A DNA stretch of 64,000 nucleotides, from contig CAZRLK010000003.1 of NCBI GenBank assembly GCA_964600555.1, forward strand, positions 4,854 to 68,853. The letters run 5' to 3'. Within the stretch, counting starts at the first letter, position 1; each line of letters begins with the position of its first letter. Positions 31,349 through 46,794 of this stretch are shown piece after piece. A model generated the notes under the pieces. The model was given only the letters and a program-made list of their open reading frames with translations, was not told where the DNA came from and made no database searches. This stretch comes from an uncultured Bradymonadales bacterium (lineage in GTDB: Bacteria; Myxococcota_A; Bradymonadia; Bradymonadales; Bradymonadaceae). The translations under genes were made by a program, and so were the position numbers.

Positions 31349-31374
31349 CGTCTCGCAGCCGAAAAGGGGAGGGG

Positions 31375-31977: not shown

Positions 31978-31983
31978 GGTCGG

Positions 31984-32469
31984 CTACCGCATCTTGGCCG
32001 GGACGTTGGCGTACTGACAATGACAGATCGCGATTGCGAGGGCGTCGGCGGCGTCCTCCGAGAGGTCGCCCTCGAGGTCGAGGCGCATCTTGACCATCCG
32101 CTGGATTTGCGACTTGTCGGCGCGCCCGTGGCCGGCGACGGTCTTTTTGACGCGGGCCGGCGGGTAGTCGTGCAGCGGCACCTCGACGTGGCGAATCGCC
32201 AGGACCGCGACGCCGCGGGCGTGCCCGAGCTTGATGGTCGACTTCGAGTTGTAGGCGGTGAAGATCGCTTCGACCGCCGCCGCGTCGGGGTCGAACTGCT
32301 CGAGGATCTGCGAGACCCCGTCGTACAAGATCGGGAGCCGGTCGTCGAGCGAGGAGGCGCCGGTGGCGTTGATGCGCCCGCTGGCGACATACTCGGTCTC
32401 GCGGTCTCGCCGGGTGACGAGACCGTAGCCGGTGTAGCGCGATCCCGGATCGATGCCGAGCACGAGCAT
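31984..32469 (-). CDS. ruvC: Crossover junction endodeoxyribonuclease RuvC
   Basis: MLVLGIDPGSRYTGYG N-terminus, DAADALAIAICH C-terminal motif. Confidence 0.9.
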   Translation of the reverse strand: MLVLGIDPGSRYTGYGLVTRRDRETEYVASGRINATGASSLDDRLPILYDGVSQILEQFDPDAAAVEAIFTAYNSKSTIKLGHARGVAVLAIRHVEVPLHDYPPARVKKTVAGHGRADKSQIQRMVKMRLDLEGDLSEDAADALAIAICHCQYANVPAKMR

Positions 32470-32538
32470 GCAACAACTCCCGGATTCCGAAGTCGAGCCG
32501 GTAGCTGGGTCCGGACGTCTGCCCGGAGTGTCCGTATT

Positions 32539-32555
32539 CTGTATACATGTTCAGT
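32539..32555. promoter_or_regulatory. Candidate LexA (SOS) box upstream of ruvC
   Basis: CTGTATACATGTTCAGT lies 70 nt upstream of the ruvC ATG. It matches 14 of 17 positions of the Myxococcus xanthus LexA-box consensus as I recall it (CTRHAMRYBYGTTCAGS), including the full GTTCAG core. It matches 13 of 16 positions of E. coli CTGTATATATATACAG. Confidence 0.4.
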
Positions 32556-32573
32556 GATTTGTAAATGAGCAAG

Positions 32574-32660
32574 TGAGTAAGGAGTATCGAGTAGGGAGTA
32601 GGGAGTATCGAGTATCGAGCAGGGGAGAATCGAGTGTGGGGCAGGGAGAATCGAGTGTGG
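32574..32660. repeat. Intergenic short word repeats (GAGTATCGAG x3; 21-bp GGGAGAATCGAGTGTGG-containing unit x2)
   Basis: GAGTAAGGAGTATCGAGTAGGGAGTAGGGAGTATCGAGTATCGAGCAGGGGAGAATCGAGTGTGGGGCAGGGAGAATCGAGTGTGG, inside the relatively AT-rich ruvC/RCC1 divergent spacer. Confidence 0.85.
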
Positions 32661-32755
32661 CGTATGGAATATGGAGGAAGTAGCGCGGAGGCTCGGTACG
32701 GCGGGGAGTTGGGATGAGATTACAGTCTAACTGAAACTGACCGGGCTCCTAGGTA

Positions 32756-32839
32756 GAAGTTCGATAAATGTGAAATTCTTGTTGAAACGCGGAAACGATT
32801 CCGTAAAAATACGTGGCGAACCGAAGTTCGGTAAATGTG
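32756..32839 (+). promoter_or_regulatory. 17-bp direct repeat GAAGTTCG(A/G)TAAATGTG x2 upstream of the RCC1 lipoprotein gene
   Basis: Copies at 32756-32772 and 32823-32839 (16 of 17 identical). The second copy ends 36 nt before the ATG at 32876. A third GTAAATG core occurs at about 32561. Confidence 0.4.
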
Positions 32840-32875
32840 CGAGACAGGTTGGAATATTCCTCAGCGGTGCGGCCC

Positions 32876-34840
32876 ATGTATACAACAGTGACCAAAGCAG
32901 CCAGTTATCTGCTCGTTCCGTTCGCCCTGGGTGCTCTGATCGTCGGTTGCGGGCCCGACGAGCCGCCCGAGGACGACGAGCAACCCGTGATCGACGTCGG
33001 CACCGACGTCGAAGAACCGGAGGATGCGGGGACGGACGCCGAGCCGGACACCCGGCCGGACACGGGGCCGGACGCCGAACCGGATACCTGCGAGCCGATG
33101 AGCTGCGAGGAGGCCGGGGTGCAGTGCGGCGAAGTCGACGACGGGTGTGGCGGGACGCTCGATTGCGGCGGCTGCGAGGGCGATGCGACCTGCGGGGAGA
33201 TCGCGCCCAACATGTGCAACTGCGCGCCGGAGAGCGACGAGGAATTCTGCGAGCGCCACGACAAGACCTGCGGGCGGTTCACCGCCGAAGACAACTGCGG
33301 GTTCGAACGCACCGCGACCTGCGGATCCTGCGGCGAAAACGAGGAATGCCAGTCGGACAACACGTGCGGGTGCGTCGAAAAGACGGACGTGACGCTGTGC
33401 AGCGAAAACGACCTCAACTGCGGCGAGGCGACCGTCGAGGGGCGCTGCAGCGAGGAGGTCGAAGTGACCTGCGGGCAGTGCACCGACCAGGGGGGCGACA
33501 TCTGCGTCGACAACGCCTGTGTCTGCGAGCCGTTCACCTGTGACGAAGTTCACGACCAGTGTGGAATCTACCCGGACGGATGCGGCGGCCAGATCACGTG
33601 TGAAGGCGGGTGCAGCGACACGCTGCTGGCCACCGGAGGTTACCACACCTGCTTTCAATCCGCCTCCTCCGACCAGCTCGAGTGCTGGGGGTGGAACAAG
33701 TACGGTCAGGTGGGGACGGGCTCGTCCAGCACGTCGGATTTCAATACGCCCCAGTCCGTGACCAGCCGATTCGACGATCTGTATTCGGTGACGGCCGGAG
33801 AGGATTTCACCTGCGTCGTCGACGGAACGGAAGCCAAATGCTGGGGGGCGAATTACGACTCGCAGGCCCTCGGCCGGGAGAACGACCCGTTCGGAAACGA
33901 GCTGAGAGAGGTGCTGACGCCGCGCAGTCCGGATGTGCCGGGAACCGGCATCAGCCAGATCAACGCCGGGGTCAACCACACGTGTGCGCTCAACACGGCC
34001 GGGGAAGTGTACTGCTGGGGGAGCAACTCGATTCTCGATGCCGACGACGGGGGCGGGGTCCTGGTGCCTGGCCCGGCAAATCCGGGGCAGTTTGACAATT
34101 ATTCGGTCGAGCCGACGCAATACGAATTCGGGCCGACCGGCGAAGCCCTGAGCGTGGAGGCCGGTTTGTGGCACTCGTGCGGTGAAGCAACCGACGGATC
34201 GCTGTGGTGCTGGGGCGCGAACTTCTTCGGGGCGATCGGAGAGGACGAGTACTTCTACGGGCGAGACGGCATTCTGTACACTCCGCCGGTGAAAGTCCCG
34301 GGCTTCGAGAACGGATTCGTGCAGGTCGCCGCCGGTGGACTCGACCAGGCCAGAGGGGAAGACCGCGGGTATTACGCGAACGACTTCAGTTGTGCCATCG
34401 ACCGCAACAACGCCGCCAAGTGTTGGGGCTCGGACGCGTTCCGCGGGGAACTCGGTGACGGGTCGGATCCGGAGCACGAGCATCCGAACCGCACACAGCC
34501 CGAGCCGGTCGAGGTCATCGGGCTCGACGGCGACGTCCTCGACCTCGCGCTGGGCGGAGCGCACGGGTGCGCGATCCAGAACAGCGAACTGTGGTGCTGG
34601 GGCGGCAACGAGTACGGCCAGATCGGGAACGGGAAATCGGGCGAGGGCGAGCAGGAGAACGTCCCGGTCGAGGTCACGATGCCCGACGACAAGGAGCCGG
34701 TGAATGTCGAGGCGGGCTTTTACCACACCTGTGCCGTCCTCGAGACCGACGAGCTGGCCTGCTGGGGGCGCAACTCCGACGGTCAGCTCGGCGACGGAAC
34801 CTACGAGATGCGCACGACGCCGAAAATCGTCTATCCCTGA
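32876..34840 (+). CDS. RCC1-repeat (beta-propeller) lipoprotein with N-terminal Cys-rich region
   Basis: ATG at 32876 giving MYTTVTKAASYLLVPFALGALIVGCGPD (lipobox). About 200 aa of Cys-rich modules (CGEVDDGCGGTLDCGGCEGDATCG...). Six or more RCC1 blades (YHTCFQS..LECWGWNKYGQVGTG, HTCALNTAGEVYCWGSN, HGCAIQNSELWCWGGNEYGQIGNG, YHTCAVLETDELACWGRNSDGQLGDG). Confidence 0.85.
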   Translation: MYTTVTKAASYLLVPFALGALIVGCGPDEPPEDDEQPVIDVGTDVEEPEDAGTDAEPDTRPDTGPDAEPDTCEPMSCEEAGVQCGEVDDGCGGTLDCGGCEGDATCGEIAPNMCNCAPESDEEFCERHDKTCGRFTAEDNCGFERTATCGSCGENEECQSDNTCGCVEKTDVTLCSENDLNCGEATVEGRCSEEVEVTCGQCTDQGGDICVDNACVCEPFTCDEVHDQCGIYPDGCGGQITCEGGCSDTLLATGGYHTCFQSASSDQLECWGWNKYGQVGTGSSSTSDFNTPQSVTSRFDDLYSVTAGEDFTCVVDGTEAKCWGANYDSQALGRENDPFGNELREVLTPRSPDVPGTGISQINAGVNHTCALNTAGEVYCWGSNSILDADDGGGVLVPGPANPGQFDNYSVEPTQYEFGPTGEALSVEAGLWHSCGEATDGSLWCWGANFFGAIGEDEYFYGRDGILYTPPVKVPGFENGFVQVAAGGLDQARGEDRGYYANDFSCAIDRNNAAKCWGSDAFRGELGDGSDPEHEHPNRTQPEPVEVIGLDGDVLDLALGGAHGCAIQNSELWCWGGNEYGQIGNGKSGEGEQENVPVEVTMPDDKEPVNVEAGFYHTCAVLETDELACWGRNSDGQLGDGTYEMRTTPKIVYP

Positions 34841-34979
34841 ACGAACGACGGCCCGGAGCGTCCGCTCGTCGCGGGCGTCGTCGGCCCGGACTCTACCACC
34901 CCGCGAGAAGCGGGTCGCAAGCGATACGCTCGTTGGATGACCGAGGTTGAGAATGTTGACGACTGCAGGAGAGCGAAGC

Positions 34980-37900
34980 ATGAGTGCCAGGATTCCTCGA
35001 TGGACGTATCGGGCCGTATTGAGCGGATGGATGCTCGTCGGTCTCGTCGCACTGGCGGCCTGCGGGCAGGACAACCCGTCCGGGACGGACCCGTGCGCGG
35101 AGACGACCTGCCAGTTCGGCGTCTGCAACAGCGATGCGGGCGGGGCGTGTACCAACCCCGAGACGTGTCGGGAGAGCAGCGAGTGTCTGCCGGGCTACGA
35201 GTGCGGGCCGGATGGTTCGTGCGTCGCCGCGAGCAGTTGCAGCTCCGACGGCGACTGCGAGTCGGGCGTCTGCGAGAGCGGAGCGTGCGTCAACCCGGAG
35301 ACCTGCGGGAGCGACGAAGAGTGTCTGCCGCGTACCTACTGCGCGGCCGACGGCACCTGCCAGCCCGACCCGTGCAACAACACCGAGTGCGAGCGGGGCA
35401 CCTGCGAGCGGGGCACCGGCGAGTGTGTCGAAGCCGAGTCGTGCACCGAGGAGACCGAGTACCGCGATTGCCTCTCCGACCAGCAGTGCATCGACGGGAC
35501 CTGCCAGACCGAAGAGGAGTTTTGCGACAGCCTCACCTGCGACCCGGGCGTCTGCAGCTTCGAGGAGCAGGGATGCGTCGAGCCCGACGAGTGTGAGAGC
35601 GACGAGGATTGCTTCGAGGGGAATCGCTGCAACGACATGAACCGCTGCGTCGAGAACCCCTGCGAGCAGGGCGATGTCGAGTGCGAGGGTGACGGCGTCT
35701 GCGACCCGGCGTCCGGGATGTGCGAGAACGCCGAGACCTGCACGTCGACCTCGGATTGCACGAACTCGCCGAAACACATCTGCGTGCAGGGGACCTGCCG
35801 GCTCGAAGCCAGTGCGTGCGGGGATGCCGAAGGGGAGGGCGGCTGTCCCGGCAATCAGGTCTGTCAGTACAGCGAAGAAGGCCTGCGCGCCTCGTGCATC
35901 GAGCCGGAGGATTGCGACACCTCGATCGACTGTCAGGAGAGCCGCCAGTGCAACGGCCGCAACTGCGTCGCGCCGTCGAGCTGTCGGGCGGACCGCTTCG
36001 AGGACAACGACACGGCGGAGAACGCGACCGACTTTCCGTCCGTCTCGATGGACAACGCGCTCACAGCATCGCTGTGTCCGGACGACACCGACGTGTACAC
36101 CTTCTCGACAACCGACCTGGTCGACGAATCGGCGACGGGGACTCTGCTGGTCGAGTTTCACCTGCCGCGGGCCGACGTCGGGCTCGGGGCGCTGGAAGCG
36201 AGCCTGAACGGGCCGGACGGCGGGGAGGTCGCATCCGGGTCGCTCGAGGCGAATGTCGACGAGGACCACCTGCGCCTGGAGGCGGAGCTGACGGAGTCGA
36301 GCCACGGCGAGTACACGATCGAGGTCGCGGCCGGCGCGTCGATGAATACGGCGGGGCTCGACTACGACCTGTCGGTCAACGTCGCCACCCAGGGAGTTGT
36401 CGAGGCGTGTGGGGACGCCGAACCTCTCGAGGTCGGTGAATTGGTCAGCGGGAACACGAACGACGGCGGCTCGAGTGGGCTGGAGTTGTCCTGCGCGCCG
36501 GACGCCGACGAGATGAACGAAAAGATCTACGCCCTCCAGCTCGACTCGCCACAGGAGCTTCACTTCGAGGCAGAGCCGAAATTCAGCGACGGGGACGTCT
36601 CGCTGGCGCTCCGGAGCCGCTGTACGGAGCCGGCGACCGAGTCGGCGTGTGTCGAATCGGCGGGCACCCACGAGGCCGAGACGCTGACGACGGTGCTCGG
36701 CGCCGGGACTCACTACGTCGTCGTCGAAACTCGTGACGCGGATGCGAGCGGGGCGTTCACCCTGCAGGCCGAGCATCTCAACGACAAGCGGTGCACGAGC
36801 CGAGACGACTACTGCAGCGGCTCGGTCACCTCGAACAAGTGTATCAACGACGGCGGGCGCTTCGAACAGCTCTCCTGCGATCTCGGCTGCAACCCCTCGA
36901 CCGGTCGATGCTACCCGCCGACGGGGAACTACTGCGAGGAAGTTACGACGATCACCGAGAACGCCTCGCGCGGATTCGATCTGCGGGAGTTTACCGACAG
37001 CTTCGACCCGGCGCCGGGCAGTTGCCTGGGCGACGACCCGCGAAGTGGCGGACCGGATCGTGTCTACGAGGTGGAAATCCCGGCCGACCAGGCCGTCCAG
37101 GTGACGGCGAACTACGAGCGAGAAGTCCAGGGGTCGTTGTACCTGGCGGAGTCGTGTGAGGAGCTGAGTGGAAGCTGCGAGAGCGGCGCGCAGGACTCGC
37201 GTGAAGAAGAGCCGTACGTCGAGCGGCTGACCTACTCGAACATGTCCGAGGACACCGAGACCCGCTACGTGGTCGTCGACTCCGAGGCAAACGAAAATCT
37301 GGCACCGGTGACCGTCAACTTCGAGTATCTGGACATCACCTGCGAGCCGGGTGTCCACCAGTGCGGCGACCAGACCGGCAACCAGCAGGTCTGCAACGAG
37401 TACGGGACCGCCTTCGAGATGTCCGACGAGTGTGGCGAGTGGCCGTGCCAGACCGGCGACGGCTCCAGCGCCTGCCGGCGGGCCGACGGTTGCTCGGACG
37501 TCCCGAACATCACCGATCAGGTGACCCCGGACGGCGGCAACCAGTACACGCTTTTGTGGGGCGACTACGACAGCAGCTTCGAATCCGACGACACCTGCGG
37601 GGGGAGTGCCGGCATCGACAGCTCGGAGACGGCCGGCAACGACGCGGTCTTCGAGATCGACGTGGCGGCCGGCGAGGTGCTGACCGCCTCCGCCGAGGGC
37701 AACGGCAACTACTCGCTGTACGTCAAGGAGTCGACCGAATCGCCGGCGACCTGCGGGTCGCTCGCCGACGAGTGTGTCGCGGCGGACAATCGGGACGGCG
37801 GGACGAGCGCCGAGATCGGGCAGTACTTCGACGAGGACAAGACGGTCTATCTGGTGTTGGATACGGAGAACGGCCAGGCGCCGGACGGGGCGTATCTGAA

Positions 37901-38981
37901 CGTCGACGTGGCACCGTCGATCTGCACGCCGGAGAATGTTGTCTGCGGGTCGAATGGAAACGTCCAGTACTGCGAGCAGCCGGGACTGAGCCAGAAGGCC
38001 TTCGCGTGTGACTCGAATGGCTGCTCGAGTGGCGTTTGCAACAGCAAGAATGCGGAGCACTGCTATGACCCCGACAATATCACGACGGACGTAGAGTCGG
38101 GGACGTTCAGTACCAGTGAGTTGTGGACGGACTTCGACAACGACTACGTCGGGAGTGGCTGTGGAAATATCGGAACCTCGGAGTCTGGCGGGCCGGAGTC
38201 GGTGTATCGCGTGGATCTTGAGGCAACCCAGACGGACGCGAAGCGATTGAGCGCGTCGCTGTCCGGTGATTCCGAGGACCATGCACTTTACGTCACTGAT
38301 GAGGCGAGCTGTGGGGCGGATCTTTCCGGTGCTGCCTGTCTGGCGTCGGCAACGGCGAGCGACGGAGCAACGGCGGACGTGACCTACACGAGTGGGACGA
38401 GCCCGGAAACCGTATACCTGGTGGCAGAAGGGTCCGATACGTCCGGCGAGGAGTACACCCTGGAAGCGAGCACGGAGTCTGTGTGTGCGTTGGGGACGGT
38501 CACGTGCAGCAGTGGGGGTGACATGGAATATTGCCCGCTGGGCTCGACGAGTCGCGAAACTGCCTCCTGTGAGGGTTGTTGTTCCGACGGGCTCGGCGGT
38601 GGATCCGACGTGAGTCGCTCGGTTCCCGCCGGCGGTACGATTACCGAGTCGGTGGATCTCGGGGCATGTCCGTCTGGCTCGGTCAGCCAGGTGCTGGTGG
38701 GCGTGCGTATGCCCGAGACCTTCCACATTGAAATTGAACTGCAGATTACGAGTCCGAGTGGCACGAATTTGACGCTGATGGAAGGGTCGGGTTCGCGAGG
38801 GAGTGGCTTCGGATATGGTATTGACGGAGTGTTTCCTCTCGGTGAATACCATTCCGCGGATTCGCTCGATCAACTTCAAGGCGAACCGGCCGCGGGAACG
38901 TGGACACTCACGGTCAACGAAGTTGGCGGATTTACATCCTATCCGTTCGAAGGATGGCACGTATCCGTTGCCTGCGACTGA
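34980..38981 (+). CDS. Giant Cys-rich modular lipoprotein, paralog A (1333 aa): Cys-knot array + PPC-like modules + C-terminal proprotein-convertase P-domain
   Basis: ATG at 34980 after CAGGAG (an in-frame ATG lies 9 codons upstream at 34953). Lipobox LVGLVALAACGQD. CAETTCQFGVCN... Cys modules. FEDNDTAENATDF...LCPDDTDVYTF (PPC-type signature). C-terminus ...IELQITSPSGTNLTLMEG...GEPAAGTWTLTVNEVGG...GWHVSVACD (P-domain-like). Confidence 0.8.
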   Translation: MSARIPRWTYRAVLSGWMLVGLVALAACGQDNPSGTDPCAETTCQFGVCNSDAGGACTNPETCRESSECLPGYECGPDGSCVAASSCSSDGDCESGVCESGACVNPETCGSDEECLPRTYCAADGTCQPDPCNNTECERGTCERGTGECVEAESCTEETEYRDCLSDQQCIDGTCQTEEEFCDSLTCDPGVCSFEEQGCVEPDECESDEDCFEGNRCNDMNRCVENPCEQGDVECEGDGVCDPASGMCENAETCTSTSDCTNSPKHICVQGTCRLEASACGDAEGEGGCPGNQVCQYSEEGLRASCIEPEDCDTSIDCQESRQCNGRNCVAPSSCRADRFEDNDTAENATDFPSVSMDNALTASLCPDDTDVYTFSTTDLVDESATGTLLVEFHLPRADVGLGALEASLNGPDGGEVASGSLEANVDEDHLRLEAELTESSHGEYTIEVAAGASMNTAGLDYDLSVNVATQGVVEACGDAEPLEVGELVSGNTNDGGSSGLELSCAPDADEMNEKIYALQLDSPQELHFEAEPKFSDGDVSLALRSRCTEPATESACVESAGTHEAETLTTVLGAGTHYVVVETRDADASGAFTLQAEHLNDKRCTSRDDYCSGSVTSNKCINDGGRFEQLSCDLGCNPSTGRCYPPTGNYCEEVTTITENASRGFDLREFTDSFDPAPGSCLGDDPRSGGPDRVYEVEIPADQAVQVTANYEREVQGSLYLAESCEELSGSCESGAQDSREEEPYVERLTYSNMSEDTETRYVVVDSEANENLAPVTVNFEYLDITCEPGVHQCGDQTGNQQVCNEYGTAFEMSDECGEWPCQTGDGSSACRRADGCSDVPNITDQVTPDGGNQYTLLWGDYDSSFESDDTCGGSAGIDSSETAGNDAVFEIDVAAGEVLTASAEGNGNYSLYVKESTESPATCGSLADECVAADNRDGGTSAEIGQYFDEDKTVYLVLDTENGQAPDGAYLNVDVAPSICTPENVVCGSNGNVQYCEQPGLSQKAFACDSNGCSSGVCNSKNAEHCYDPDNITTDVESGTFSTSELWTDFDNDYVGSGCGNIGTSESGGPESVYRVDLEATQTDAKRLSASLSGDSEDHALYVTDEASCGADLSGAACLASATASDGATADVTYTSGTSPETVYLVAEGSDTSGEEYTLEASTESVCALGTVTCSSGGDMEYCPLGSTSRETASCEGCCSDGLGGGSDVSRSVPAGGTITESVDLGACPSGSVSQVLVGVRMPETFHIEIELQITSPSGTNLTLMEGSGSRGSGFGYGIDGVFPLGEYHSADSLDQLQGEPAAGTWTLTVNEVGGFTSYPFEGWHVSVACD

Positions 38982-39137
38982 GCGAGCGTGCAGGACCTCG
39001 GGCCATGATCTGCGGTTCATGGGGGCGGCAGCAGTGAGGGACTGCAGGGACGGAAAGAAGACAAGATACGAGGCGTGATCGACAGGCGCAGAGGATTCAT
39101 GAAGGACGCAATGATGGAGACGTCAGGAGTCGAACCG

Positions 39138-42100
39138 ATGAGTACAGCAGTCTGGAAGCGAGGCGTGAAGGCGTTCCTGTTGGGAGCGTTTCTGGTCGGT
39201 CTAATCGGGGCCTCGGGGTGTGGATCCGACGACGACCAGCAACAGCAGTCGCTGTGCGAGGATACGACCTGTCAGTTCGGCACCTGCTCGCCGGAGACCG
39301 GGGAATGTGTCAACGAGTCGGGCTGTCAGGAGGATACCGACTGTCTGCCGGGCTATTCGTGCGGGGAGGGGAACACCTGCGAGGCGGAGCAGACCTGCAC
39401 GACGGACGCCGAATGCGAGATCGGCCAGTGCGACGGCGAGGCGTGCGTCAATCCCGATAGTTGCGAGAGCGACTCGGACTGCCACGAGCGCACCTACTGC
39501 GGGTCGGACGGGACCTGCCAGCCGGACCCGTGCAACCGGACCGACTGCCGGCGGGGTGTCTGCGAGCGGGGAGCCGGGGAGTGCGTCTCGGCGGAGAGCT
39601 GCACGCCGGACAACGAGCTGTACAAATGTGTGGCCGGAGAGCGATGTGCGAACGAGGCGTGTCATCCGCTCGAGGATGCGCGCATCGAGTTTTGCGACTC
39701 CATCACCTGTGACCGCGGTATCTGTAGCTTCGAGGAGCGAAGCTGTGTGAACGCGCCGGACTGCGGCGGCGAGGATGCGAACTGCCTGGAGGGATACTTC
39801 TGCAACGACTCGAATACCTGCCAGCGCAACCTCTGCGACCGCGACGACGTCGACTGCGACGGCGGCGGGGTGTGCGACCCGGTGACCGGCCAGTGCGAAA
39901 ACGCCGAGGAGTGCGAGTCGCACGACGAGTGTCGCTCGACGCCGGAGCACGTCTGCCTGGACGGCACGTGTACGCTGGCGGCCTCGGCGTGCGGGGACGG
40001 GACCGGCGAAGGGGGATGCCCGGGTGACCAGACCTGCGAGATCGATCGCGAGGAGATGACGGCGAGCTGTGTCGAGACGGACGGATGCGACACCTCGATC
40101 GATTGTACCGGCGACCGACAGTGCAACGGAAACACCTGCATCGACCCCGTCACGTGCCGCGAGGACGCCTTCGAGCCAAACGACTCGGCCGAAGAGGCGA
40201 CGAGTTTCTCGAACGCGGCGAAGGACGGGATCTTCAGCGGTTCGTTGTGCAGCGACGATACGGACGTGGTGACCTTCGATACGACCGAGTGGACCGACGA
40301 GTCGACGCAGGCGACGCTGCAGTTGGCGCTCACGATTCCCGAGCGCGACGTCGGGCTCGGCGACGTGCAGGTCGCGGTGACGAATCCGATGGGGACGGAG
40401 GTCGCGAACGAGACGCTCCCGGCGAGTGCCGGCGAGCGGACTCTGACGATCACCTCCTCGCTGGCGGCCGAAGATCACGGAAGCTACACGGTCGAGCTGA
40501 CGCCCGGCGATTCGATGAAAGGCGCCGGCGTCACCTACGAGATGACCGTCGACCTGCTCGACGGTGCGGAGCGGCAGGCATGCGAGAACGCCGAGGAGAT
40601 CGAAGTGCAGCAGCGCCTCTCGGGGACGACGGTCGATTCGACGTCGTCGAGGATCGGCTCGTCGTGTACGCCGCCGGACGGAGAGGACGGGGCCTCGAAC
40701 GAGAAGATCTATCGGCTCGACCTCGAGACCTCGCAGCGGCTCTCGATCGAGGCGACGCCGGAGGTTCCGGCGCCCCCGGAAGACGACGAGGACGACGAGT
40801 GGTCGCCGCCCGAGTCGACGGACCTGTCGGTTTCGGTGCGACGCCGCTGTGCGGAGTCGGCGACGGAGACGGCCTGCGTCGACGATCAGCCGGCGGGCAG
40901 CCCGGAGACGATCGTCCGGAACTTCAGTGCCGGGACGCACTTCATCGTGGTACAGACGCCCGCCGGGACGGACGGCCGGGCCTTCGATTTGACCGTCGAC
41001 CGGATGGCCGAGACGCAGTGTACGGACCGGGCCAACCACTGCTCCGACAGCGACACCTCGCAGGTCTGCGACGTCGAGGGCGGCGGGTTCACGGAGGTCG
41101 AATGTGACGAGGGGTGTCACCCGTCGACCGGCCGGTGCTTTCCGCCGGAGGGCAACGTCTGCCAGGACGCCCCGAGTGTCTCGTGGAGAGATTCGTCGAA
41201 CACCCGCTCGTTCGATCTCCTGCAGTATCGGAACAACTACGAGCTCGGCACCGACAGTTGCATCGATGCCGACGATCCGCGGACCGGCGGGCCGGACAAA
41301 GCCTACACGATCGAACTCGATCCCGAGCAGTCGGTCAACGTGAGCGCGGAGTTCGAAAACGATGTCGAGGGCGTGTTGTACGTCGCCGAGGAGTGCGGGG
41401 CGGCCGGCGACTCTTGCATCACCAGCGCCCAGGGGACGACCGAGAGTCCGTACCGCGAATCGCTCGACTACTCGAACACCTCGAGTCAGACCGAGACGGT
41501 GACGCTGGTCGTCGACACGGCGGCCGGGCAAAACTACGGGAACGTACAGCTGGAGTTCGAGTATCCGGAGGTCGTCTGCCAGCCCGGCACGAAAGTCTGT
41601 ACGCTCGACGACACGGTCGACACCTGCGGGGAGTACGGTCGGGAGTACAATCAGACCGACACCTGCGGGGTCGGCTGTACGTCGGGGACGTGTGACGGAG
41701 AGACCTGCGGCCAGCCGCAAGATATCACACAGGAGGTTCGTCGGGAGGGTGGGACGCGGATCTTCGCCTCGTGGGACGATTTCAACAACGACTACAACAG
41801 CACGTGCGGAAATCTCGGAGAGGGTGCGACCAACGGAGGCGACGCCGTCTTCGCGATCGACATGCAGGCCGACGACGTGCTGGAGGCGACGCTCAGCGGC
41901 GACGATACCGACGTCGGGATGTACCTGACGTCGAGTTGCAGTTCGACCGACAGTTGTCTCGCTTCCGTGCAGACGAACGGTCTGTCGGGGAGCCTCTCAT
42001 ATCACGCCGACACCCAGGAAACGGTGTATTTGCACGCCGACGCCGATGGAGGATCGTCCGGAGAATTCATGCTCGAGGTCAATACCAGCGAGTACGTGTG

Positions 42101-43196
42101 TACGCCGAACACCGTCGATGGATGCACGGACGGTGGAGACGTCGCCTACTGCTCGTCAAGTGGTGCGCAGAAGCTGACCTATGATTGCGGAACGGGCGGC
42201 TGCACGGACGCAATGTGTGACGATCGTGGATCGGACTATTGCTTCGACGCCGAAAACATCACTCAGGAGGCGCGTGGAGCTGACGGCGTGAACCGGGACC
42301 CGAACTGGGCGGCGCACGACAACAATCTGTCGTTCGACGCCTGTGGCATCTCCCGGGCCGACTCCCAGGGTCCCGATGCCGTCTACAAGGTCGACCTGGA
42401 GGGCGACGAGACACTGAGAGCGTCGCTGGAGGGTCAGTTGAACGGTCCGGATTCGAACCTGCGGTTGATAGAAGGGTGTATGGAGCCGGGTTCTTCGTGC
42501 AGAGAGGGTGTCATGGATAGCCAGGAGGCGTCTTTGACGTACGAAGCGTCGAGTGCGGAGACGCTGTATCTGGTCGGTGACTTCAACGACAGCGATCCGG
42601 GTAGCAACGAGTTCGAGGCGACGGTGCGGACCCGCTGCTCGACGACCGGTGCGACCAGTTGCGGGACGCGCGACCGTGTCCAGCACTGTACGAGTGAAGG
42701 GCTGGAGACGCCGTTTGGGTGTACGGACTGCTGCGGATCCGCCGGTGGAGGATTCGACGACGTCGGGATTGACCCCATTCCGATCGCCGACCCCGAATGG
42801 GATGAAAACACGAACCCGGATCCCGATCCGTCGACCGGCTTGACGCGGACGATCAACGTCCAGGGCTGTAGCGGGGACGTCTCCGATGTGCAGGTCGGGC
42901 CGGACATCGGCGACGGCAGTTTCCAGACCCAGTACCGACACAATCTGGTGATGGCCCTCGAGAGTCCGTCGGGCACGCTCGTCGACCTGGAGGACAAAGA
43001 AGACGAGTTCGAAGACTTCGATCCGTTCGGCCGGCTGAACTTTTACCCGCGGGACTACGAGCCCGAGGATTCGCTGGATGCCTTCAACGGCGAGAATGCG
43101 AACGGCGACTGGAACCTCCACGTGGCGCGGACCGGAGACGACGAGACGCTTCAGGGGCCGTTTCACTCCTGGTCGCTTCTCGTCGCGTGCGACTGA
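39138..43196 (+). CDS. Giant Cys-rich modular lipoprotein, paralog B (1352 aa), same architecture with C-terminal P-domain
   Basis: ATG at 39138 after CAGGAG (upstream in-frame ATG at 39111). Lipobox LVGLIGASGCGSD. CEDTTCQFGTCS... colinear with paralog A. FEPNDSAEEATSF...LCSDDTDVVTF. C-terminus NLVMALESPSGTLVDLED...GENANGDWNLHVARTGDD...SWSLLVACD. Confidence 0.8.
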   Translation: MSTAVWKRGVKAFLLGAFLVGLIGASGCGSDDDQQQQSLCEDTTCQFGTCSPETGECVNESGCQEDTDCLPGYSCGEGNTCEAEQTCTTDAECEIGQCDGEACVNPDSCESDSDCHERTYCGSDGTCQPDPCNRTDCRRGVCERGAGECVSAESCTPDNELYKCVAGERCANEACHPLEDARIEFCDSITCDRGICSFEERSCVNAPDCGGEDANCLEGYFCNDSNTCQRNLCDRDDVDCDGGGVCDPVTGQCENAEECESHDECRSTPEHVCLDGTCTLAASACGDGTGEGGCPGDQTCEIDREEMTASCVETDGCDTSIDCTGDRQCNGNTCIDPVTCREDAFEPNDSAEEATSFSNAAKDGIFSGSLCSDDTDVVTFDTTEWTDESTQATLQLALTIPERDVGLGDVQVAVTNPMGTEVANETLPASAGERTLTITSSLAAEDHGSYTVELTPGDSMKGAGVTYEMTVDLLDGAERQACENAEEIEVQQRLSGTTVDSTSSRIGSSCTPPDGEDGASNEKIYRLDLETSQRLSIEATPEVPAPPEDDEDDEWSPPESTDLSVSVRRRCAESATETACVDDQPAGSPETIVRNFSAGTHFIVVQTPAGTDGRAFDLTVDRMAETQCTDRANHCSDSDTSQVCDVEGGGFTEVECDEGCHPSTGRCFPPEGNVCQDAPSVSWRDSSNTRSFDLLQYRNNYELGTDSCIDADDPRTGGPDKAYTIELDPEQSVNVSAEFENDVEGVLYVAEECGAAGDSCITSAQGTTESPYRESLDYSNTSSQTETVTLVVDTAAGQNYGNVQLEFEYPEVVCQPGTKVCTLDDTVDTCGEYGREYNQTDTCGVGCTSGTCDGETCGQPQDITQEVRREGGTRIFASWDDFNNDYNSTCGNLGEGATNGGDAVFAIDMQADDVLEATLSGDDTDVGMYLTSSCSSTDSCLASVQTNGLSGSLSYHADTQETVYLHADADGGSSGEFMLEVNTSEYVCTPNTVDGCTDGGDVAYCSSSGAQKLTYDCGTGGCTDAMCDDRGSDYCFDAENITQEARGADGVNRDPNWAAHDNNLSFDACGISRADSQGPDAVYKVDLEGDETLRASLEGQLNGPDSNLRLIEGCMEPGSSCREGVMDSQEASLTYEASSAETLYLVGDFNDSDPGSNEFEATVRTRCSTTGATSCGTRDRVQHCTSEGLETPFGCTDCCGSAGGGFDDVGIDPIPIADPEWDENTNPDPDPSTGLTRTINVQGCSGDVSDVQVGPDIGDGSFQTQYRHNLVMALESPSGTLVDLEDKEDEFEDFDPFGRLNFYPRDYEPEDSLDAFNGENANGDWNLHVARTGDDETLQGPFHSWSLLVACD

Positions 43197-43333
43197 GCAG
43201 GCCCGACGTCCCGTCGCCCGACCGGCGGCGGGAGTGGGAGTGAACGAACAGCAGGACAGAGAGACGACGATCAGGTAGGTGTGTGGAGACTCGCACGGAA
43301 GAACCAATGTTGGTGACGTCAGGAGTACAAAAG

Positions 43334-45889
43334 ATGACCGACTCGATCTCGCGGATGCAACGCTTGGCTCTGCTCGCAGGGTTGGTGGCCCTGGGGGCGG
43401 GGATGTTCGTCGGATGCGGTGGAGACGACGATCCGCCGCCTCCCTGTGAGAACACGACCTGCCAGTTCGGCACCTGCTCGAACGAGGCCGACGGGGAGTG
43501 TGTGAACATGGATTCGTGCAGCGAGCACGACGACTGCGTGCCGGGGTATGTCTGCGGGGCGGACAACACCTGCGAGGCGCAGACGACGTGTGAGTCGGAC
43601 TCGGACTGCGAGCAGGGCATCTGCGGGGACGACGGGGTGTGCGTCAATCCCGACAGTTGCGAGCAGGACTCGGAGTGTGTCGACCGGACGTACTGCGGGG
43701 AGGAGGGCACCTGCCGACCCGACCCGTGCAACGAGGTGAACTGCGAGCGCGGAAGCTGCGAGCGGGGCACCGGCCAGTGCGTCTCCTCGGAGACGTGCAC
43801 GCCGGAGACGCAGGCGCTCGACTGCGTGCCGGGCGAGAAATGCATCGATGCGGGCTGCGAGGAGCAGGAGGCGTACTGCGAGACGATGACCTGTGAGCGG
43901 GGCGTCTGCAGCTTCGAGCAGGAGGGCTGTGTGAACGCCCGAGAATGCTCCGGCGACGAGGAGTGTGTCGAGGGGTATTTCTGCAACGACTCGGGGCAAT
44001 GCCAGGTGAATGTCTGCGAGCGCGACAACGTCACCTGCGATCCGTGTGAGCGGGCGACCGGAGGTTGTCCCGAGCGGGACGAATGTGAATCGAGCGCGGA
44101 CTGCATCAACGATCCAAACCACCTTTGCGTCGAGGGCACCTGCGAACTCGAATCGGTGGCCTGTGGGGACTCGGGCGGGGACGGGGGCTGCCCGGGCAAC
44201 CGCACCTGCAGCTACGACGCCGACAGCCTCGAGGCGACCTGCGAAGAGCCGGATGCCTGCGAGACCTCGATCGACTGCGACGACGGGCGTCGCTGCAACG
44301 GCGAAAGCTGCGTCGACACCATGGCCTGCCAGAACGACGCCTTCGAGCCAAACGAGGGGACCGACGAGGCGGTCGACTTCACGGCGTTTGCCGCGGACAA
44401 CTCGCTCGAGGCGGCGCTGTGCGAGGGCGACACCGACGTGTACGGCTTCGAGACGACGGAGTTCGTCGACGAGGAGTACGAGGGGACGATTCGCGCCGAG
44501 ATCGACGTGCCGCAACGAGACGTCGGGCTCGGGGATGTGGAGTTGAGGCTACTCGACTCCGAGGGGAGCGAAGTGACCAGTGCGACGCTTCCCGCCGGCG
44601 ACACGAGCGGCCACCTGGCGGTCTCGACGGGGGTGACCTCGGGTGAGCACGGCGAATACAGCGTCGAGGTGTCGGCGGGGGACGAGATGAGTTCCGGCGG
44701 CCTCGGCTACACGCTGTCGGTGAATCTGCTGGAGGGGACGGTCGCGGATGCATGCCGGGACGCCGAGAGCGTCGAGATCAACCAGCAGGTCTCGGGGACG
44801 ACCGAGGATGCTCCCTCCTCCGAGATCGGCTCGAGTTGCACGTCGGTCGACAACGCTTCGAACGAAAAGATCTTCCGGCTCGACCTCGAGCAGCCCCAGG
44901 AGATCGACATCGAGGTCGTGCCGCAGTTGAGCAGCGCCGACCTGGCGGTCTCCCTGCGAAAACGGTGCACGGAGCCGTCGACGGAGACGGCGTGCGTCGA
45001 ACAGGCCGACGACGACGGAGCGGAGACGCTCAGTCGGGTGGTCGGCGCCGGCTCGCACTACATCGTCGTGCAGGGCGCGGAGGCGGATACCGGTGGACCG
45101 TTTCAGATGACCGTCGAGCGGGGCTTTACGACCGAATGCGCGCCAGGCGAGGCGTACTGCAGCGGTTCGGAGACGGTGCGTCGATGCACCGACGACGGCG
45201 GCGACTACGAAGAGGTCTCGTGTTCGACGACGAGCTGTGACGTCTCGCACGGGGAGTGTCGGCCGGCCGACAACGATCTGTGTCTCAATGCCTCGTCGAT
45301 CAGTGGGGATACGACCGAGACGGTCGCCCTCGCGGATTTCTCGAACAACTACGAATTCGACGCGGACGACTACGACGAGTTCGACGAAACCGGGTGTCTC
45401 GCGGACGGCGAGCTCGACGACACCAAAACCGACGGTCCCGACCGCAGCTACGAAGTCGAAATCCCGGCGAACACCGAAATGGAGGTCATCACGACCTATC
45501 CGACGGCGGTCGAAGGTTCGGTGTATCTCGCTTCGGAGTGCCGCCGCGACCTGTCGGAAGCCTGCGTGGCGGGGGCGCGGGGCACGGACTACGACTTCGC
45601 CGCGAACAAGGAGCAGCTCGTTTACGCGAACGACTCCAGCGAGGCGCAGACGTACTATCTGGTCGTCGACGTCGGAGCCGACGAGGGCTACGAAGAGGGT
45701 GAAACCGAAGTGCAGTTCACGTTCACCGAGCAGGAGGGAGGCGAGGGCGACACGGGCGTCGATGCCGGCATGGACGCCGGCGGAACGGACGACGCCGGCG
45801 GAACGGACGACGCGGGCATGGACGCGGACGCCGGGATGACAGATGTCGGGTCGACGGACGCCGGACTGGATGCCGCCGACGGCAACTGA
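43334..45889 (+). CDS. Giant Cys-rich modular lipoprotein, paralog C (851 aa), shorter; lacks the P-domain and ends in an Asp/Ala/Gly-rich tail
   Basis: ATG at 43334 after CAGGAG (upstream in-frame ATG at 43307). Lipobox LGAGMFVGCGGDD. CENTTCQFGTCS... colinear with A and B through the first three PPC-like modules. FEPNEGTDEAVDF...LCEGDTDVYGF. Tail DTGVDAGMDAGGTDDAGGTDDAGMDADAGMTDVGSTDAGLDAADGN. Confidence 0.8.
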   Translation: MTDSISRMQRLALLAGLVALGAGMFVGCGGDDDPPPPCENTTCQFGTCSNEADGECVNMDSCSEHDDCVPGYVCGADNTCEAQTTCESDSDCEQGICGDDGVCVNPDSCEQDSECVDRTYCGEEGTCRPDPCNEVNCERGSCERGTGQCVSSETCTPETQALDCVPGEKCIDAGCEEQEAYCETMTCERGVCSFEQEGCVNARECSGDEECVEGYFCNDSGQCQVNVCERDNVTCDPCERATGGCPERDECESSADCINDPNHLCVEGTCELESVACGDSGGDGGCPGNRTCSYDADSLEATCEEPDACETSIDCDDGRRCNGESCVDTMACQNDAFEPNEGTDEAVDFTAFAADNSLEAALCEGDTDVYGFETTEFVDEEYEGTIRAEIDVPQRDVGLGDVELRLLDSEGSEVTSATLPAGDTSGHLAVSTGVTSGEHGEYSVEVSAGDEMSSGGLGYTLSVNLLEGTVADACRDAESVEINQQVSGTTEDAPSSEIGSSCTSVDNASNEKIFRLDLEQPQEIDIEVVPQLSSADLAVSLRKRCTEPSTETACVEQADDDGAETLSRVVGAGSHYIVVQGAEADTGGPFQMTVERGFTTECAPGEAYCSGSETVRRCTDDGGDYEEVSCSTTSCDVSHGECRPADNDLCLNASSISGDTTETVALADFSNNYEFDADDYDEFDETGCLADGELDDTKTDGPDRSYEVEIPANTEMEVITTYPTAVEGSVYLASECRRDLSEACVAGARGTDYDFAANKEQLVYANDSSEAQTYYLVVDVGADEGYEEGETEVQFTFTEQEGGEGDTGVDAGMDAGGTDDAGGTDDAGMDADAGMTDVGSTDAGLDAADGN

Positions 45890-45921
45890 CGTCGGTGCAA
45901 TGAAAAGTCGAGCTTTCGCAC

Positions 45922-45967
45922 AAAAAACCCGGCCCGGACTCGCTCGTAGAGTCCGGGCCGGGTTTTT
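45922..45967. terminator. Strong bidirectional rho-independent terminator between paralog C (+) and yebC (-)
   Basis: AAAAAACCCGGCCCGGACTC-GCTCGTA-GAGTCCGGGCCGGGTTTTT: a perfect 15-bp stem and 7-nt loop, with an A-run on one side and a T-run on the other. Confidence 0.9.
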
Positions 45968-46002
45968 GTCGTTCGAAGGAAGCGGCGACGAAGGCGAAGG
46001 CG

Positions 46003-46794
46003 TCAGCCGCGGACCTCCTCGTCGAGGTCGCCCGGCATCTCGCAGTTGGCGTAGGCGTCCTGGACGTCGTCGTGGTCGTCGAGTTGGCGGTAAAACTCGA
46101 GGAACTTCTCGGATTCGTCCCGGTTCAGTTCGACGGTCTGAGTCGGGAGACGGACCGGCTTGGAGCGTTTGATTTCGTAGCCTTCCTCGCGGAGGTGCTC
46201 GTCGACGTCGGCGAGTTCCTCGAAGCCGGTGAAAATCTGGTAGACCTCGATGTCGTCCGGATTTTTCTTCTCGCTCTCGGGGGTGAACATCTGCTCGTCG
46301 ATCTCCTGGGCGCCCAGCTCGATGATCTCGAGCTGGAAGGTCTCCTCGTCGTCGATCGAGCCCTTGTCGACCAGGATCTCGCCTTTTCGGTCGAACTGCC
46401 AGGCGACACAGCCGTCCTCGCCGAGGTTCCCGTCGTGGGTGTCGAACAGGTGGCGAAGCTCGGAGACGGTTCGGTTGGTATTGTCGGTCAGCGCCTCGAC
46501 GAAGACGGCGACGCCGGCCGGGCCGTACCCCTCGTAGGTGTGGCGCTCGTAGTCGACGCCCTCGAGTTCACCGGTGCCGCGCTTGATGGCGCGTTCGATG
46601 TTCTCTTTGGGCATGTCGGCTTCGTGCGCCCGCTCGATGGCCATCCGCAGATCGGGGTTGTACTCCGGATCACCGCCGCCTTCGCGCGCCGCGACGGTGA
46701 TCTCGCGGATAAGCTTGTTGAAGATCTTGGCGCGGCGGCGGTCGCGCTTTTTTTTCTTGTGTTTGATCTTGCTCCACTTGTTGTGACCCGACAT
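46003..46794 (-). CDS. yebC: YebC/PmpR family DNA-binding transcriptional regulator
   Basis: MSGHNKWSKIKHKKKKRDRRRAKIFNKLIREITVAAREGGGDPEYNPDLR is the characteristic YebC N-terminus. ATG at 46794. Confidence 0.9.
   Translation of the reverse strand: MSGHNKWSKIKHKKKKRDRRRAKIFNKLIREITVAAREGGGDPEYNPDLRMAIERAHEADMPKENIERAIKRGTGELEGVDYERHTYEGYGPAGVAVFVEALTDNTNRTVSELRHLFDTHDGNLGEDGCVAWQFDRKGEILVDKGSIDDEETFQLEIIELGAQEIDEQMFTPESEKKNPDDIEVYQIFTGFEELADVDEHLREEGYEIKRSKPVRLPTQTVELNRDESEKFLEFYRQLDDHDDVQDAYANCEMPGDLDEEVRG

What the first reader, a model, noticed from the sequence alone, without database searches (positions are those of the whole stretch)
32470..46002. Conserved yebC-ruvCAB cluster split by a 13.5-kb opposite-strand block of four Cys-rich lipoprotein genes
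yebC (46003-46794) and ruvC-ruvA-ruvB (32469 down to 30266) are all on the minus strand in the order typical of the yebC-ruvC(-ruvAB) arrangement of E. coli and many other bacteria. Here they are separated by four plus-strand genes: an RCC1 lipoprotein and three giant paralogs. The left border is a ~400-bp relatively AT-rich spacer with word repeats. The right border is a perfect 15-bp-stem bidirectional terminator. This looks like an accessory block inserted into a housekeeping operon, although no integrase, transposase or att-like tRNA is present.
Basis: partly seen in the sequence, partly recalled or inferred. Interest (0 to 1): 0.65.

Follow-up and report, generated by a model that had tools for sequence, protein, structure and literature searches.

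The report
Lipoprotein gene block between yebC and ruvC
In this predatory-bacterium (Bradymonadales) genome, a 13.5-kb set of four cysteine-rich surface-lipoprotein genes was inserted long ago between two normally adjacent housekeeping genes; it is a real but fairly ordinary lineage-specific gene gain, not a mobile island.

Summary
ruvB, ruvA, ruvC (30266-32469, minus) and yebC (46003-46794, minus) are separated by four plus-strand lipoprotein genes: one RCC1 propeller and three paralogs sharing 38-44% identity.

Relatives with 79%, 76%, 72%, 71% and about 60% RuvC identity all keep PALP-LMWPc-yebC-ruvC-ruvA-ruvB-folE contiguous. The gap between yebC and ruvC there is about 7-117 nt. One sister species (RuvC 89%) has the same block with 1:1 orthologs on a single contig, plus a fifth gene. 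The block is therefore a single gain that predates that species split.

It is not a recent mobile island. Codon usage is native. The odd tetranucleotide usage is explained by 6.9% cysteine. There is no integrase, transposase, tRNA or flanking repeat.

It did not break an operon in this sub-lineage. ruvCAB has its own promoter with a LexA-box-like palindrome (32539-32554), which is also present in the relatives without the block. The block landed between the yebC stop and that promoter.

The paralogs belong to a small, uncharacterised family seen in Bradymonadales wherever a source organism is named. Each has a lipid anchor, a disulfide-rich stalk and collagen-binding-like (PPC) beta-sandwich domains; two also have a C-terminal P-domain. 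No catalytic domain was found, so they are probably surface binding proteins. Interest is modest.

The parts
30266..31348 (-). ruvB
   Evidence: Pfam RuvB_N, AAA_lid_4 and RuvB_C. It is 82% identical to the sister-species ortholog.
31375..31977 (-). ruvA
   Evidence: Pfam RuvA_N and HHH_5.
31984..32469 (-). ruvC
   Evidence: Pfam RuvC, E 4e-46. Identity to relatives runs from 89% down through 79, 76, 74, 72 and 71 to about 60%.
32536..32565 (-). ruvCAB promoter-like site (TTTACA-N18-CAGAAT). It overlaps the LexA-box-like palindrome CTGAACATGTATACAG at 32539-32554.
   Evidence: The promoter scan gave one of only two hits in 14.6 kb here. The box is conserved upstream of ruvC in L168, L170-L174 and L176, with or without the block. 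The relaxed motif occurs nowhere else in 276 kb. It resembles the M. xanthus SOS box CTRHAMRYBYGTTCAGS (PMC9705874).
32581..32666 (.). Four tandem copies of a 21-22-nt unit that starts GGAGWATCGAGT.
   Evidence: 4 exact copies, none elsewhere, and no shuffle out of 100 reached the number of matches found. The function is unknown. They could be regulator sites or slippage repeats.
32756..32839 (+). Putative promoter region for the block. A 17-nt direct repeat GAAGTTCGRTAAATGTG (32756-32772 and 32823-32839) brackets TTGAAA-N17-AAAAAT (32782-32810).
   Evidence: This is a consensus match only, not tested.
32876..34840 (+). RCC1-type beta-propeller lipoprotein with an acidic linker and a Cys-rich N-terminal region. 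The ORF opens at 32813.
   Evidence: Pfam WD40_RLD, RCC1 and RCC1_2. The lipobox IVGC is read. The 654-aa gene call in L082 fixes the start. It is 62% identical to the ortholog in L083.
34980..38981 (+). Paralog G1. It has a lipobox, a Cys-rich stalk, five PPC-like beta-sandwich domains separated by small Cys knots, and a C-terminal P-domain. The ORF opens at 34947.
   Evidence: Pfam P_proprotein, 30.7 bits against a cut-off of 21. P0001 (1333 aa) gives the start. It is 61% identical to the sister-species ortholog. The five-domain count is read from the sequence and not modelled.
39138..43196 (+). Paralog G2, same architecture as G1. The ORF opens at 39075.
   Evidence: Pfam P_proprotein, 37.7 bits. 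P0008 (1352 aa) gives the start. It is 38% identical to G1 and 61% to its ortholog.
43283..45889 (+). Paralog G3, a short form. It has a Cys-rich stalk, three beta-sandwich domains and a disordered acidic tail. The probable start is between 43307 and 43358.
   Evidence: It is 43-44% identical to G1 and G2. The AlphaFold2 model has pLDDT 85.4. Foldseek matches the ColG collagen-binding domains (5iku) and a collagenase PPC domain (5sv5).
45923..45967 (.). Bidirectional intrinsic-terminator hairpin shared by the convergent G3 and yebC.
   Evidence: Perfect 19-bp stem and 7-nt loop, with A and T runs on both sides, z = -5.9. A hairpin sits at the same position in L176 and L083.
46003..46794 (-). 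yebC (TACO1/YebC family)
   Evidence: Pfam TACO1_YebC_N and Transcrip_reg. It is 92% identical to the sister-species ortholog.

Best explanation
The organism is a member of Bradymonadales (Myxococcota, class Bradymonadia). In the common ancestor of this organism and one sister species, surface-lipoprotein genes were inserted into the few nucleotides between the yebC stop codon and the ruvCAB promoter. The inserted DNA has native composition and belongs to gene families typical of the lineage. It most likely came from another place in the same or a closely related genome, by recombination that left no mobile-element traces (inferred).

The paralog family then diversified into G1, G2 and G3 before the two species split. 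This may have happened by tandem duplication in place, but that is only weakly supported.

The block works as its own plus-strand transcription unit (inferred from sequence). It runs from a promoter in the AT-rich repeat-bearing spacer to a bidirectional terminator, which now also ends yebC transcription. ruvCAB keeps its older promoter with a LexA-box-like operator and remains a separate, probably DNA-damage-inducible, unit (inferred).

The encoded proteins are lipid-anchored and disulfide-rich. Each has a rigid Cys-rich stalk. One carries an RCC1 propeller. The other three carry strings of PPC/collagen-binding-like beta-sandwich domains, and two of them also have a P-domain. No catalytic domain was found. 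They are most likely cell-surface binding or adhesion proteins of this predatory bacterium (inferred from fold only).
For: Synteny:
- PALP-LMWPc-yebC-ruvC-ruvA-ruvB-folE-Pyr_redox_2 is contiguous in L170 (RuvC 76%) and in L171/L172 (72%).
- LMWPc-yebC-ruvC-ruvA-ruvB is contiguous in L173 (79%), a 3.6-kb contig cut at both ends.
- yebC-ruvCAB-folE-Pyr_redox_2 is contiguous in L001, L002 and L003.
- The window has the same genes, order and strand on both sides of the block.
- L176 (RuvC 89%) carries ruvBAC, a 465-aa lipoprotein, RCC1, G1, G2, G3, yebC, LMWPc and PALP on one 96.9-kb contig.
- L083 and L168 are the same species as L176 (97.7% nt identity) and their ends overlap by exactly 55 nt.

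Age and origin:
- Orthologs are 1:1 at 61-62% identity. The flanks range from 82-92% (yebC, ruvCAB) to 67-68% (folE, Pyr_redox_2).
- The RSCU distance of the block genes (0.64-0.68) is among the lowest in the window. GC3 of 0.82-0.85 is inside the window's range.
- The tetranucleotide correlation is 0.83. The same proteins recoded with flank codon usage give 0.77 +/- 0.02.
- The family occurs as tandem arrays at other loci in other Bradymonadales: at least 9 copies in L175/L084 and 2 copies in Persicimonas caeni L087.

Promoter:
- The box plus -35/-10 is conserved in 7 loci, with or without the block.
- It matches the M. xanthus SOS box at 14 of 17 positions, my own count against the consensus quoted in PMC9705874.

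Proteins: Pfam, AlphaFold2 model at pLDDT 85, Foldseek hits to ColG CBDs and a PPC domain, and nearly invariant Cys columns.
Against: - No donor locus was identified and no mechanism of insertion is visible. There are no repeats, IS elements or integrase.
- Monophyly of G1+G2+G3 has only 58% NJ bootstrap support. In-place triplication versus import of an existing array is therefore open.
- L174 (RuvC 74%) has 278 nt of AT-rich non-coding DNA instead of yebC upstream of the ruvC promoter. The history of this site may involve more than one event.
- Relatedness of the genomes was judged from identities of a few proteins, not from a species tree.
- Promoters, terminator, LexA binding, lipidation, surface exposure and binding function are all untested predictions.
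Confidence: 0.75

Rival explanations
1. The block is ancestral at this site, and the other Bradymonadales lost it by deletion.
For: Two species carry it with diverged orthologs. L174 lacks yebC directly upstream of ruvC. The sister species and the window differ by one gene, so gene loss or gain does happen at this site.
Against: At least six block-free genomes, at successively lower RuvC identity (79, 76, 72, 71, 60 and 59%), all have yebC followed within about 7-117 nt by ruvC. In three of them the yebC stop lies 1-20 nt from the -35 element. Repeated, equally precise deletions would be required.
Confidence: 0.07
2. The block is a recently acquired foreign genomic island, brought in by horizontal transfer through a mobile element.
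For: It has the opposite strand to its neighbours and an AT-rich border. Presence is patchy among relatives. GC is slightly lower than the rest (0.646 against 0.670). The tetranucleotide correlation is lower (0.83 against 0.94-0.98).
Against: Codon usage is not an outlier. The tetranucleotide deviation is reproduced, and even exceeded, by recoding the same proteins with native codons. No integrase, transposase, tRNA or terminal repeats were found. The block is conserved with 61-62% orthologs in a second species. Where hits carry a source name, the family is found in Bradymonadales and Myxococcota.
Confidence: 0.08
3. The arrangement is an assembly artefact: a chimeric join through repeated paralog sequence.
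For: Short-read assemblies of this organism and of the sister species break inside or next to the block.
Against: Both junctions are reproduced in separate contigs. L082 carries ruvB-ruvA-ruvC-spacer-RCC1-G1. L081 carries yebC-terminator-G3. The whole arrangement lies on one 96.9-kb contig in the sister species.
Confidence: 0.02
4. A larger rearrangement (inversion or translocation) separated yebC from ruvC, rather than a simple insertion.
For: The block is on the opposite strand. Two further opposite-strand gene sets interrupt the same syntenic region.
Against: yebC and ruvCAB keep their relative order and strand. Genes beyond them on both sides are collinear with relatives. Only the intervening DNA is new.
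Confidence: 0.05

Closest known systems
yebC-ruvC(-ruvAB) conserved gene neighbourhood (E. coli yebC-ruvC operon with the LexA-regulated ruvAB operon next to it; established knowledge)
   Same: The window has the same genes in the same order and orientation. In 71 of 78 informative loci from diverse phyla, a RuvC match lies within 10 kb downstream of yebC, and in 25 it is directly adjacent.
   Different: Here 13.5 kb of opposite-strand genes lie between yebC and ruvC. In this clade the LexA-like box sits in front of ruvC, so ruvCAB would be one damage-inducible unit. In E. coli only ruvAB is LexA-regulated (from memory).
Non-mobile lineage-specific gene insertions, and tandem paralog arrays of surface proteins, in bacterial genomes
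   Same: The block is patchily present among relatives, made of tandem paralogs, and encodes secreted or surface proteins. It lacks mobility genes and sits in an intergenic gap between conserved genes.
   Different: It has none of the classical genomic-island hallmarks (tRNA, integrase, direct repeats, skewed composition). It is old enough to have 61-62% orthologs in a second species.
Collagen-binding / pre-peptidase C-terminal (PPC, PF04151) domains of clostridial and Bacillus collagenases (PDB 5iku, 5sv5)
   Same: The beta-sandwich domains of the G3 model match them by fold: 5iku at E 1e-12, and 5sv5 at TM 0.79 normalised to the target. Several family members carry weak PF04151 hits.
   Different: No peptidase domain is attached. 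The sequence match to PF04151 in the window proteins is below threshold (9.9 bits against 25.9). The domains are separated by small Cys knots and preceded by a Cys-rich stalk of about 300 aa and a lipid anchor.
Myxococcus xanthus SOS box CTRHAMRYBYGTTCAGS (PMC9705874)
   Same: The element is an imperfect palindrome with CT..A.....GTTCAG conserved. It overlaps the -35/-10 elements of a DNA-repair operon.
   Different: Three of 17 positions depart from the consensus in the window copy. LexA binding is untested, and no lexA or recA promoter of this lineage was available for comparison.

Membership tests
Mobile genomic island | Integrase, recombinase or transposase gene in or next to the block | tested here: not met
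   Pfam and NCBIfam scans of all four block proteins and their neighbours found none.
Mobile genomic island | Insertion at a tRNA/tmRNA gene or att site with flanking direct repeats | tested here: not met
   The only tRNA is at 6021-6096. The longest word shared between the two borders is 9 nt, which 26% of shuffles also reach.
Mobile genomic island | Composition or codon usage different from the host genome | tested here: not met
   RSCU distance is 0.64-0.68, not an outlier. The tetranucleotide deviation is explained by amino-acid composition.
Mobile genomic island | Present in some close relatives and absent in others | tested here: met
   Present in the window and the RuvC-89% species. Absent in relatives at 79% and below.
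yebC-ruvCAB conserved cluster | yebC immediately followed by co-oriented ruvC in the lineage | tested here: met
   Met in relatives L001-L003 and L170-L173, with gaps of about 7-117 nt. In the window the two genes are co-oriented but 13,533 nt apart.
Bacterial lipoproteins | Signal peptide ending in a lipobox with an invariant Cys | tested here: met
   IVGC, LAAC, ASGC and FVGC follow hydrophobic N-terminal segments, read from the translations. No dedicated predictor was available and lipidation is untested.
RCC1-like beta-propeller proteins | Repeated RCC1 blades above the Pfam threshold | tested here: met
   PF25390 at 173 bits (cut-off 150), PF00415 at 122 bits and PF13540 at 122 bits.
Subtilisin-like proprotein convertases | Peptidase S8 catalytic domain preceding the P-domain | tested here: not met
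   Only the P-domain (PF01483) is found in G1 and G2, with no S8 hit even at E <= 10. The JGI name 'subtilisin-like proprotein convertase family protein' given to two homologs is therefore misleading for these proteins.
PPC / collagen-binding domain superfamily | PPC beta-sandwich fold | tested here: met
   Foldseek on a model with pLDDT 85: 5iku at E 1e-12 and 5sv5 at TMt 0.79. By sequence the match is below threshold.
LexA (SOS) operator, Myxococcus type | Match to CTRHAMRYBYGTTCAGS within a core promoter | tested here: inconclusive
   14 of 17 positions match (my count) and all the fixed letters are present. The element overlaps the -35/-10 and is conserved in 7 loci.
LexA (SOS) operator, Myxococcus type | Bound by LexA and de-repressed on DNA damage | not testable with these tools
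   Needs a gel-shift (EMSA) or ChIP experiment and expression data.

The most novel reading that the evidence does not exclude
The few nucleotides between yebC and the SOS-type ruvC promoter may be a recurrent landing site for surface-protein genes in this Bradymonadaceae clade. Three states are seen: the window with 4 genes, the sister species with 5, and L174 with a different AT-rich sequence. The paralog arrays (3 copies here, at least 9 elsewhere) may be a fast-diversifying repertoire of lipid-anchored, PPC-domain prey- or substrate-recognition proteins used in contact-dependent predation. They could also be co-regulated through the repeat-bearing divergent promoter region that they share with the damage-inducible ruvCAB operon.
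Probability: 0.15. Interest if true: 0.55.

Novelty: new member of a known kind. Interest (0 to 1): 0.3.

Why it matters
The finding is a clean, datable example of a conserved housekeeping cluster being opened by lineage-specific surface-protein genes without any mobile-element signature. The pre-existing promoter of the downstream operon was preserved.

It also points to an uncharacterised, narrowly distributed family of large Cys-rich lipoproteins. Only 256 cluster representatives match among 1.84 billion proteins. The family is amplified in tandem in Bradymonadales, a group of bacterial predators (PMC7460792), whose prey-contact machinery is, to my knowledge, poorly understood.

Finally, it suggests a Myxococcus-like SOS box in front of ruvCAB in this class. 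None of this overturns current understanding. The value is mainly annotation and a set of candidate genes for predation or adhesion studies.

Tried and rejected
It was uninformative for close relatives.
- Exact-protein look-ups of the window's YebC and RuvC: these found only fragments of the same organism, so no strain lacking the block is available.
- NCBIfam scan of the four block proteins and a PDB sequence search with G1: no meaningful hits.
- Search for terminal direct or inverted repeats between the two borders: nothing beyond chance.
- Search for a remnant of the sister species' 465-aa gene in the window spacer: none found.
- Alignment of the RCC1-proximal spacer between the window and the sister species: not convincingly homologous. 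Only the ruvC-proximal promoter is conserved.
- Tetranucleotide deviation as evidence for foreign origin: rejected after the recoding simulation.
- A literature search for Bradymonadales Cys-rich lipoproteins returned nothing relevant.
Full report
WHAT IS THERE. The window is high-GC DNA (66.5%). Its nearest relatives in public genomes are Bradymonadales: a Bradymonadaceae MAG has YebC at 75% identity and Persicimonas has it at 64%. Pfam confirms ruvB (30266-31348), ruvA (31375-31977) and ruvC (31984-32469) on the minus strand, and yebC (46003-46794) on the minus strand.

Four plus-strand ORFs lie between ruvC and yebC. The first (32813/32876-34840) is an RCC1 beta-propeller protein. The other three are G1 (34947-38981, 1344 aa), G2 (39075-43196, 1373 aa) and G3 (43283-45889, 868 aa), which share 38-44% identity. 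Each of the four has a signal peptide ending in a lipobox cysteine. Together they are 6.9% Cys, against 1.7% in the other genes of the window.

The left spacer (32470-32875) is 406 nt at 51.7% GC. It carries four copies of a 21-22-nt unit and a 17-nt direct repeat. The right border is a perfect 19-bp hairpin (45923-45967) flanked by A and T runs, with z = -5.9. The only caveat is that G3 is a shorter form.

IS IT AN INSERTION? Yes.
- Relatives with RuvC identities of 76% (L170) and 72% (L171/L172) carry PALP-LMWPc-yebC-ruvC-ruvA-ruvB-folE-Pyr_redox_2 without interruption.
- L173 (79%), a 3.6-kb contig cut at both ends, carries LMWPc-yebC-ruvC-ruvA-ruvB without interruption.
- L001 (71%) and L002/L003 (about 60%) carry yebC-ruvCAB-folE-Pyr_redox_2.
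- The window has exactly these genes, in the same order and strand, on both sides of the block.
- A sister species (YebC 92%, RuvC 89%) has the block at the same place. On one 96.9-kb contig (L176) the order is ruvB-ruvA-ruvC, a 465-aa Cys-rich RCC1_2-like lipoprotein on the ruvC strand, then RCC1, G1, G2 and G3 on the other strand, then yebC-LMWPc-PALP.
- Two contigs from another sample of that species (L083, L168; 97.7% nt identity to L176) end in the divergent spacer and overlap by exactly 55 nt.
- Orthology between the two species is one-to-one, at 61-62% identity for all four proteins.

The simplest history is one gain in the common ancestor of these two species. The fifth gene was either lost in the window or gained in the sister; no remnant of it is left in the window. 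L174 (RuvC 74%) is a caveat. It is a short contig in which 278 nt of 45.7%-GC non-coding DNA, not yebC, precede the ruvC promoter. The site may therefore have been hit more than once.

Across other phyla, yebC and ruvC are usually linked. In 71 of 78 informative loci a RuvC match lies within 10 kb of yebC. Only 25 are directly adjacent, so intervening genes are not unprecedented.

IS IT FOREIGN OR MOBILE? There is no evidence for either.
- GC3 of the block genes (0.82-0.85) falls within the window's range of 0.82-0.95. Their synonymous-codon profile is among the closest to the window average.
- Tetranucleotide usage does deviate: r = 0.83 to the rest of the window, against 0.94-0.98 for control segments of equal size.
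- Rewriting the same four proteins with codons drawn from the flanking genes gives r = 0.77 +/- 0.02. The deviation therefore comes from the unusual amino-acid composition.
- There is no integrase, transposase or tRNA. The borders share no repeat beyond chance.
- The paralog family itself looks native to the group. Where hits carry a source name, they are Bradymonadales, such as Persicimonas caeni FIV42_19050, or Myxococcota. The family occurs as tandem arrays at unrelated loci: at least nine copies in the genome that also has an uninterrupted yebC-ruvC (L175/L084 with L171), and two copies in P. caeni.
- An exhaustive HMMER search finds only 256 cluster representatives at E <= 1e-3, and 125 at <= 1e-30, among 1.84 billion proteins.
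- In an NJ tree the three window paralogs pair with their sister-species orthologs at 100% bootstrap. Together they form one clade with only 58% support. Duplication in place after insertion is possible but not established.

EFFECT ON THE HOUSEKEEPING GENES. A 16-nt imperfect palindrome, CTGAACAT(NN)ATACAG, lies about 60-85 nt upstream of ruvC. It is embedded between a TTGNNN -35 element and a CAGAAT -10 element. It is present in the window (32539-32554), in the sister species, and in the block-free relatives L170-L174.

The element matches the Myxococcus xanthus SOS box CTRHAMRYBYGTTCAGS (quoted in PMC9705874) at 14 of 17 positions by my count, including all fixed letters. In this sub-lineage ruvCAB therefore very probably already had its own promoter, likely LexA-controlled.

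In three block-free relatives the yebC stop lies only 1-20 nt from the -35 element (L171/L172, L170, L173). The block went exactly into that gap, leaving the yebC reading frame and the ruvC promoter intact.

The insert brought or evolved a bidirectional terminator, needed now that G3 and yebC converge. A hairpin is conserved at the same position in the sister species. The only two sigma-70-like matches in 14.6 kb are the ruvC promoter and a site 66 nt upstream of the RCC1 start. No terminator-like hairpin comparable to the one at 45923-45967 was seen between the block genes. The four genes are therefore plausibly one transcription unit. All of this is inference from sequence.

WHAT THE PROTEINS ARE. 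An AlphaFold2 model of G3, built on a 51-sequence family alignment, is confident (mean pLDDT 85.4). It shows the following layout:
- a stalk of short disulfide-bonded beta-hairpins, about residues 55-350; nearly every Cys column is conserved across the family;
- three beta-sandwich domains separated by small Cys knots;
- a disordered acidic tail.

Foldseek's best PDB match is the tandem collagen-binding domain pair of ColG (5iku, E 1e-12). A collagenase pre-peptidase C-terminal domain (5sv5) aligns with TM 0.79 normalised to the target. The other hits are generic binding beta-sandwiches.

G1 and G2 extend this layout, by my reading of the sequence, with two more such domains. They also carry a C-terminal proprotein-convertase P-domain above the Pfam threshold, but no protease domain.

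The first gene combines a similar Cys-rich region with a seven-blade-type RCC1 propeller. With a lipid anchor, many disulfides and only binding-type modules, these are best read as cell-surface binding or adhesion proteins. Bradymonadales are bacterial predators (PMC7460792), so a role in contact with prey or particles is a reasonable but untested guess.

VERDICT. The finding is real and the insertion reading is right. It is not a recent accessory island, and it did not disrupt an operon in this sub-lineage. It is an old, compositionally native, lineage-specific gain of a tandem surface-lipoprotein family at a spot between two transcription units. This is a new instance of a familiar kind of genome change. 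As by-products it yields an uncharacterised protein family and a putative SOS box. Interest is modest (0.3).

Noticed in passing
window 32539-32554 (also L168 1589-1604, L170 3709-3724, L171 9938-9953, L172 5418-5433, L173 1944-1959, L174 279-294, L176 1964-1979): A conserved LexA-box-like palindrome, CTGAACATNNATACAG, sits between the -35 and -10 elements upstream of ruvC. It resembles the M. xanthus SOS box. It suggests that ruvCAB is one damage-inducible unit in this clade. It is absent from the more distant L001-L003, where yebC and ruvC are 7-73 nt apart.
   Followed up: yes
window 21263-28700: A second opposite-strand insertion interrupts the same syntenic region. Four plus-strand genes lie between accC and the Pyr_redox_2 gene: a beta-helix protein (22146-23789), a small ORF (24569-25090), a GT2 glycosyltransferase (25094-26257) and an M6-like peptidase (26529-28658). 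accC and Pyr_redox_2 are adjacent in L170, L171 and L172. The sister species (L168) has different genes there (TetR, DUF6261).
   Followed up: partly
window 51310-54388: A third plus-strand interruption is present. A 522-aa Cys-rich protein with Dickkopf_N and DUF7107 hits (52755-54323) lies between the TSP_3-repeat protein and alaS. Those two genes are adjacent in L171. Its Cys-rich part is weakly similar to the N-terminal stalk of G2 and G3.
   Followed up: partly
L176 2042-3439 (= L168 69-1466): The sister species has a fifth block gene. It is a 465-aa Cys-rich lipoprotein with degenerate RCC1_2 blades, on the ruvC strand directly upstream of the ruvC promoter. It is absent from the window without a trace.
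   Followed up: yes
L174 1-278: In a relative with 74% RuvC identity, the DNA upstream of the ruvC promoter is 45.7% GC, non-coding and unrelated to yebC or to the window spacer. This may be an independent event at the same site. The contig ends there.
   Followed up: partly
L175 1-22859 and L084 1-23456 (overlapping loci on one contig): Another Bradymonadales genome has at least nine tandem, co-oriented paralogs of the G family (about 950-1330 aa each). The same organism keeps yebC-ruvCAB uninterrupted.
   Followed up: partly
window 32581-32666: There are four exact copies of GGAGWATCGAGT at 21-22-nt spacing, about two helical turns apart, in the divergent spacer. They may be regulator sites or a slippage repeat. 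No clear counterpart was found in the sister species.
   Followed up: partly
window 48961-51309: A 782-aa minus-strand protein consists largely of thrombospondin type 3 (calcium-binding) repeats: 12 stretches, E 8e-122. It is conserved next to PALP in L171 and L172.
   Followed up: no
window about 24000-54000: GC skew is positive throughout, whatever the gene strand, so the plus strand is probably the leading strand. All three lineage-specific inserts are plus-strand, while the conserved genes around them are minus-strand.
   Followed up: no
L171 16129-16533: An IS200-type Y1 transposase gene lies between accB and the mur ligase genes in one relative. This shows that mobile elements do visit this neighbourhood, although none is near the block.
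   Followed up: no
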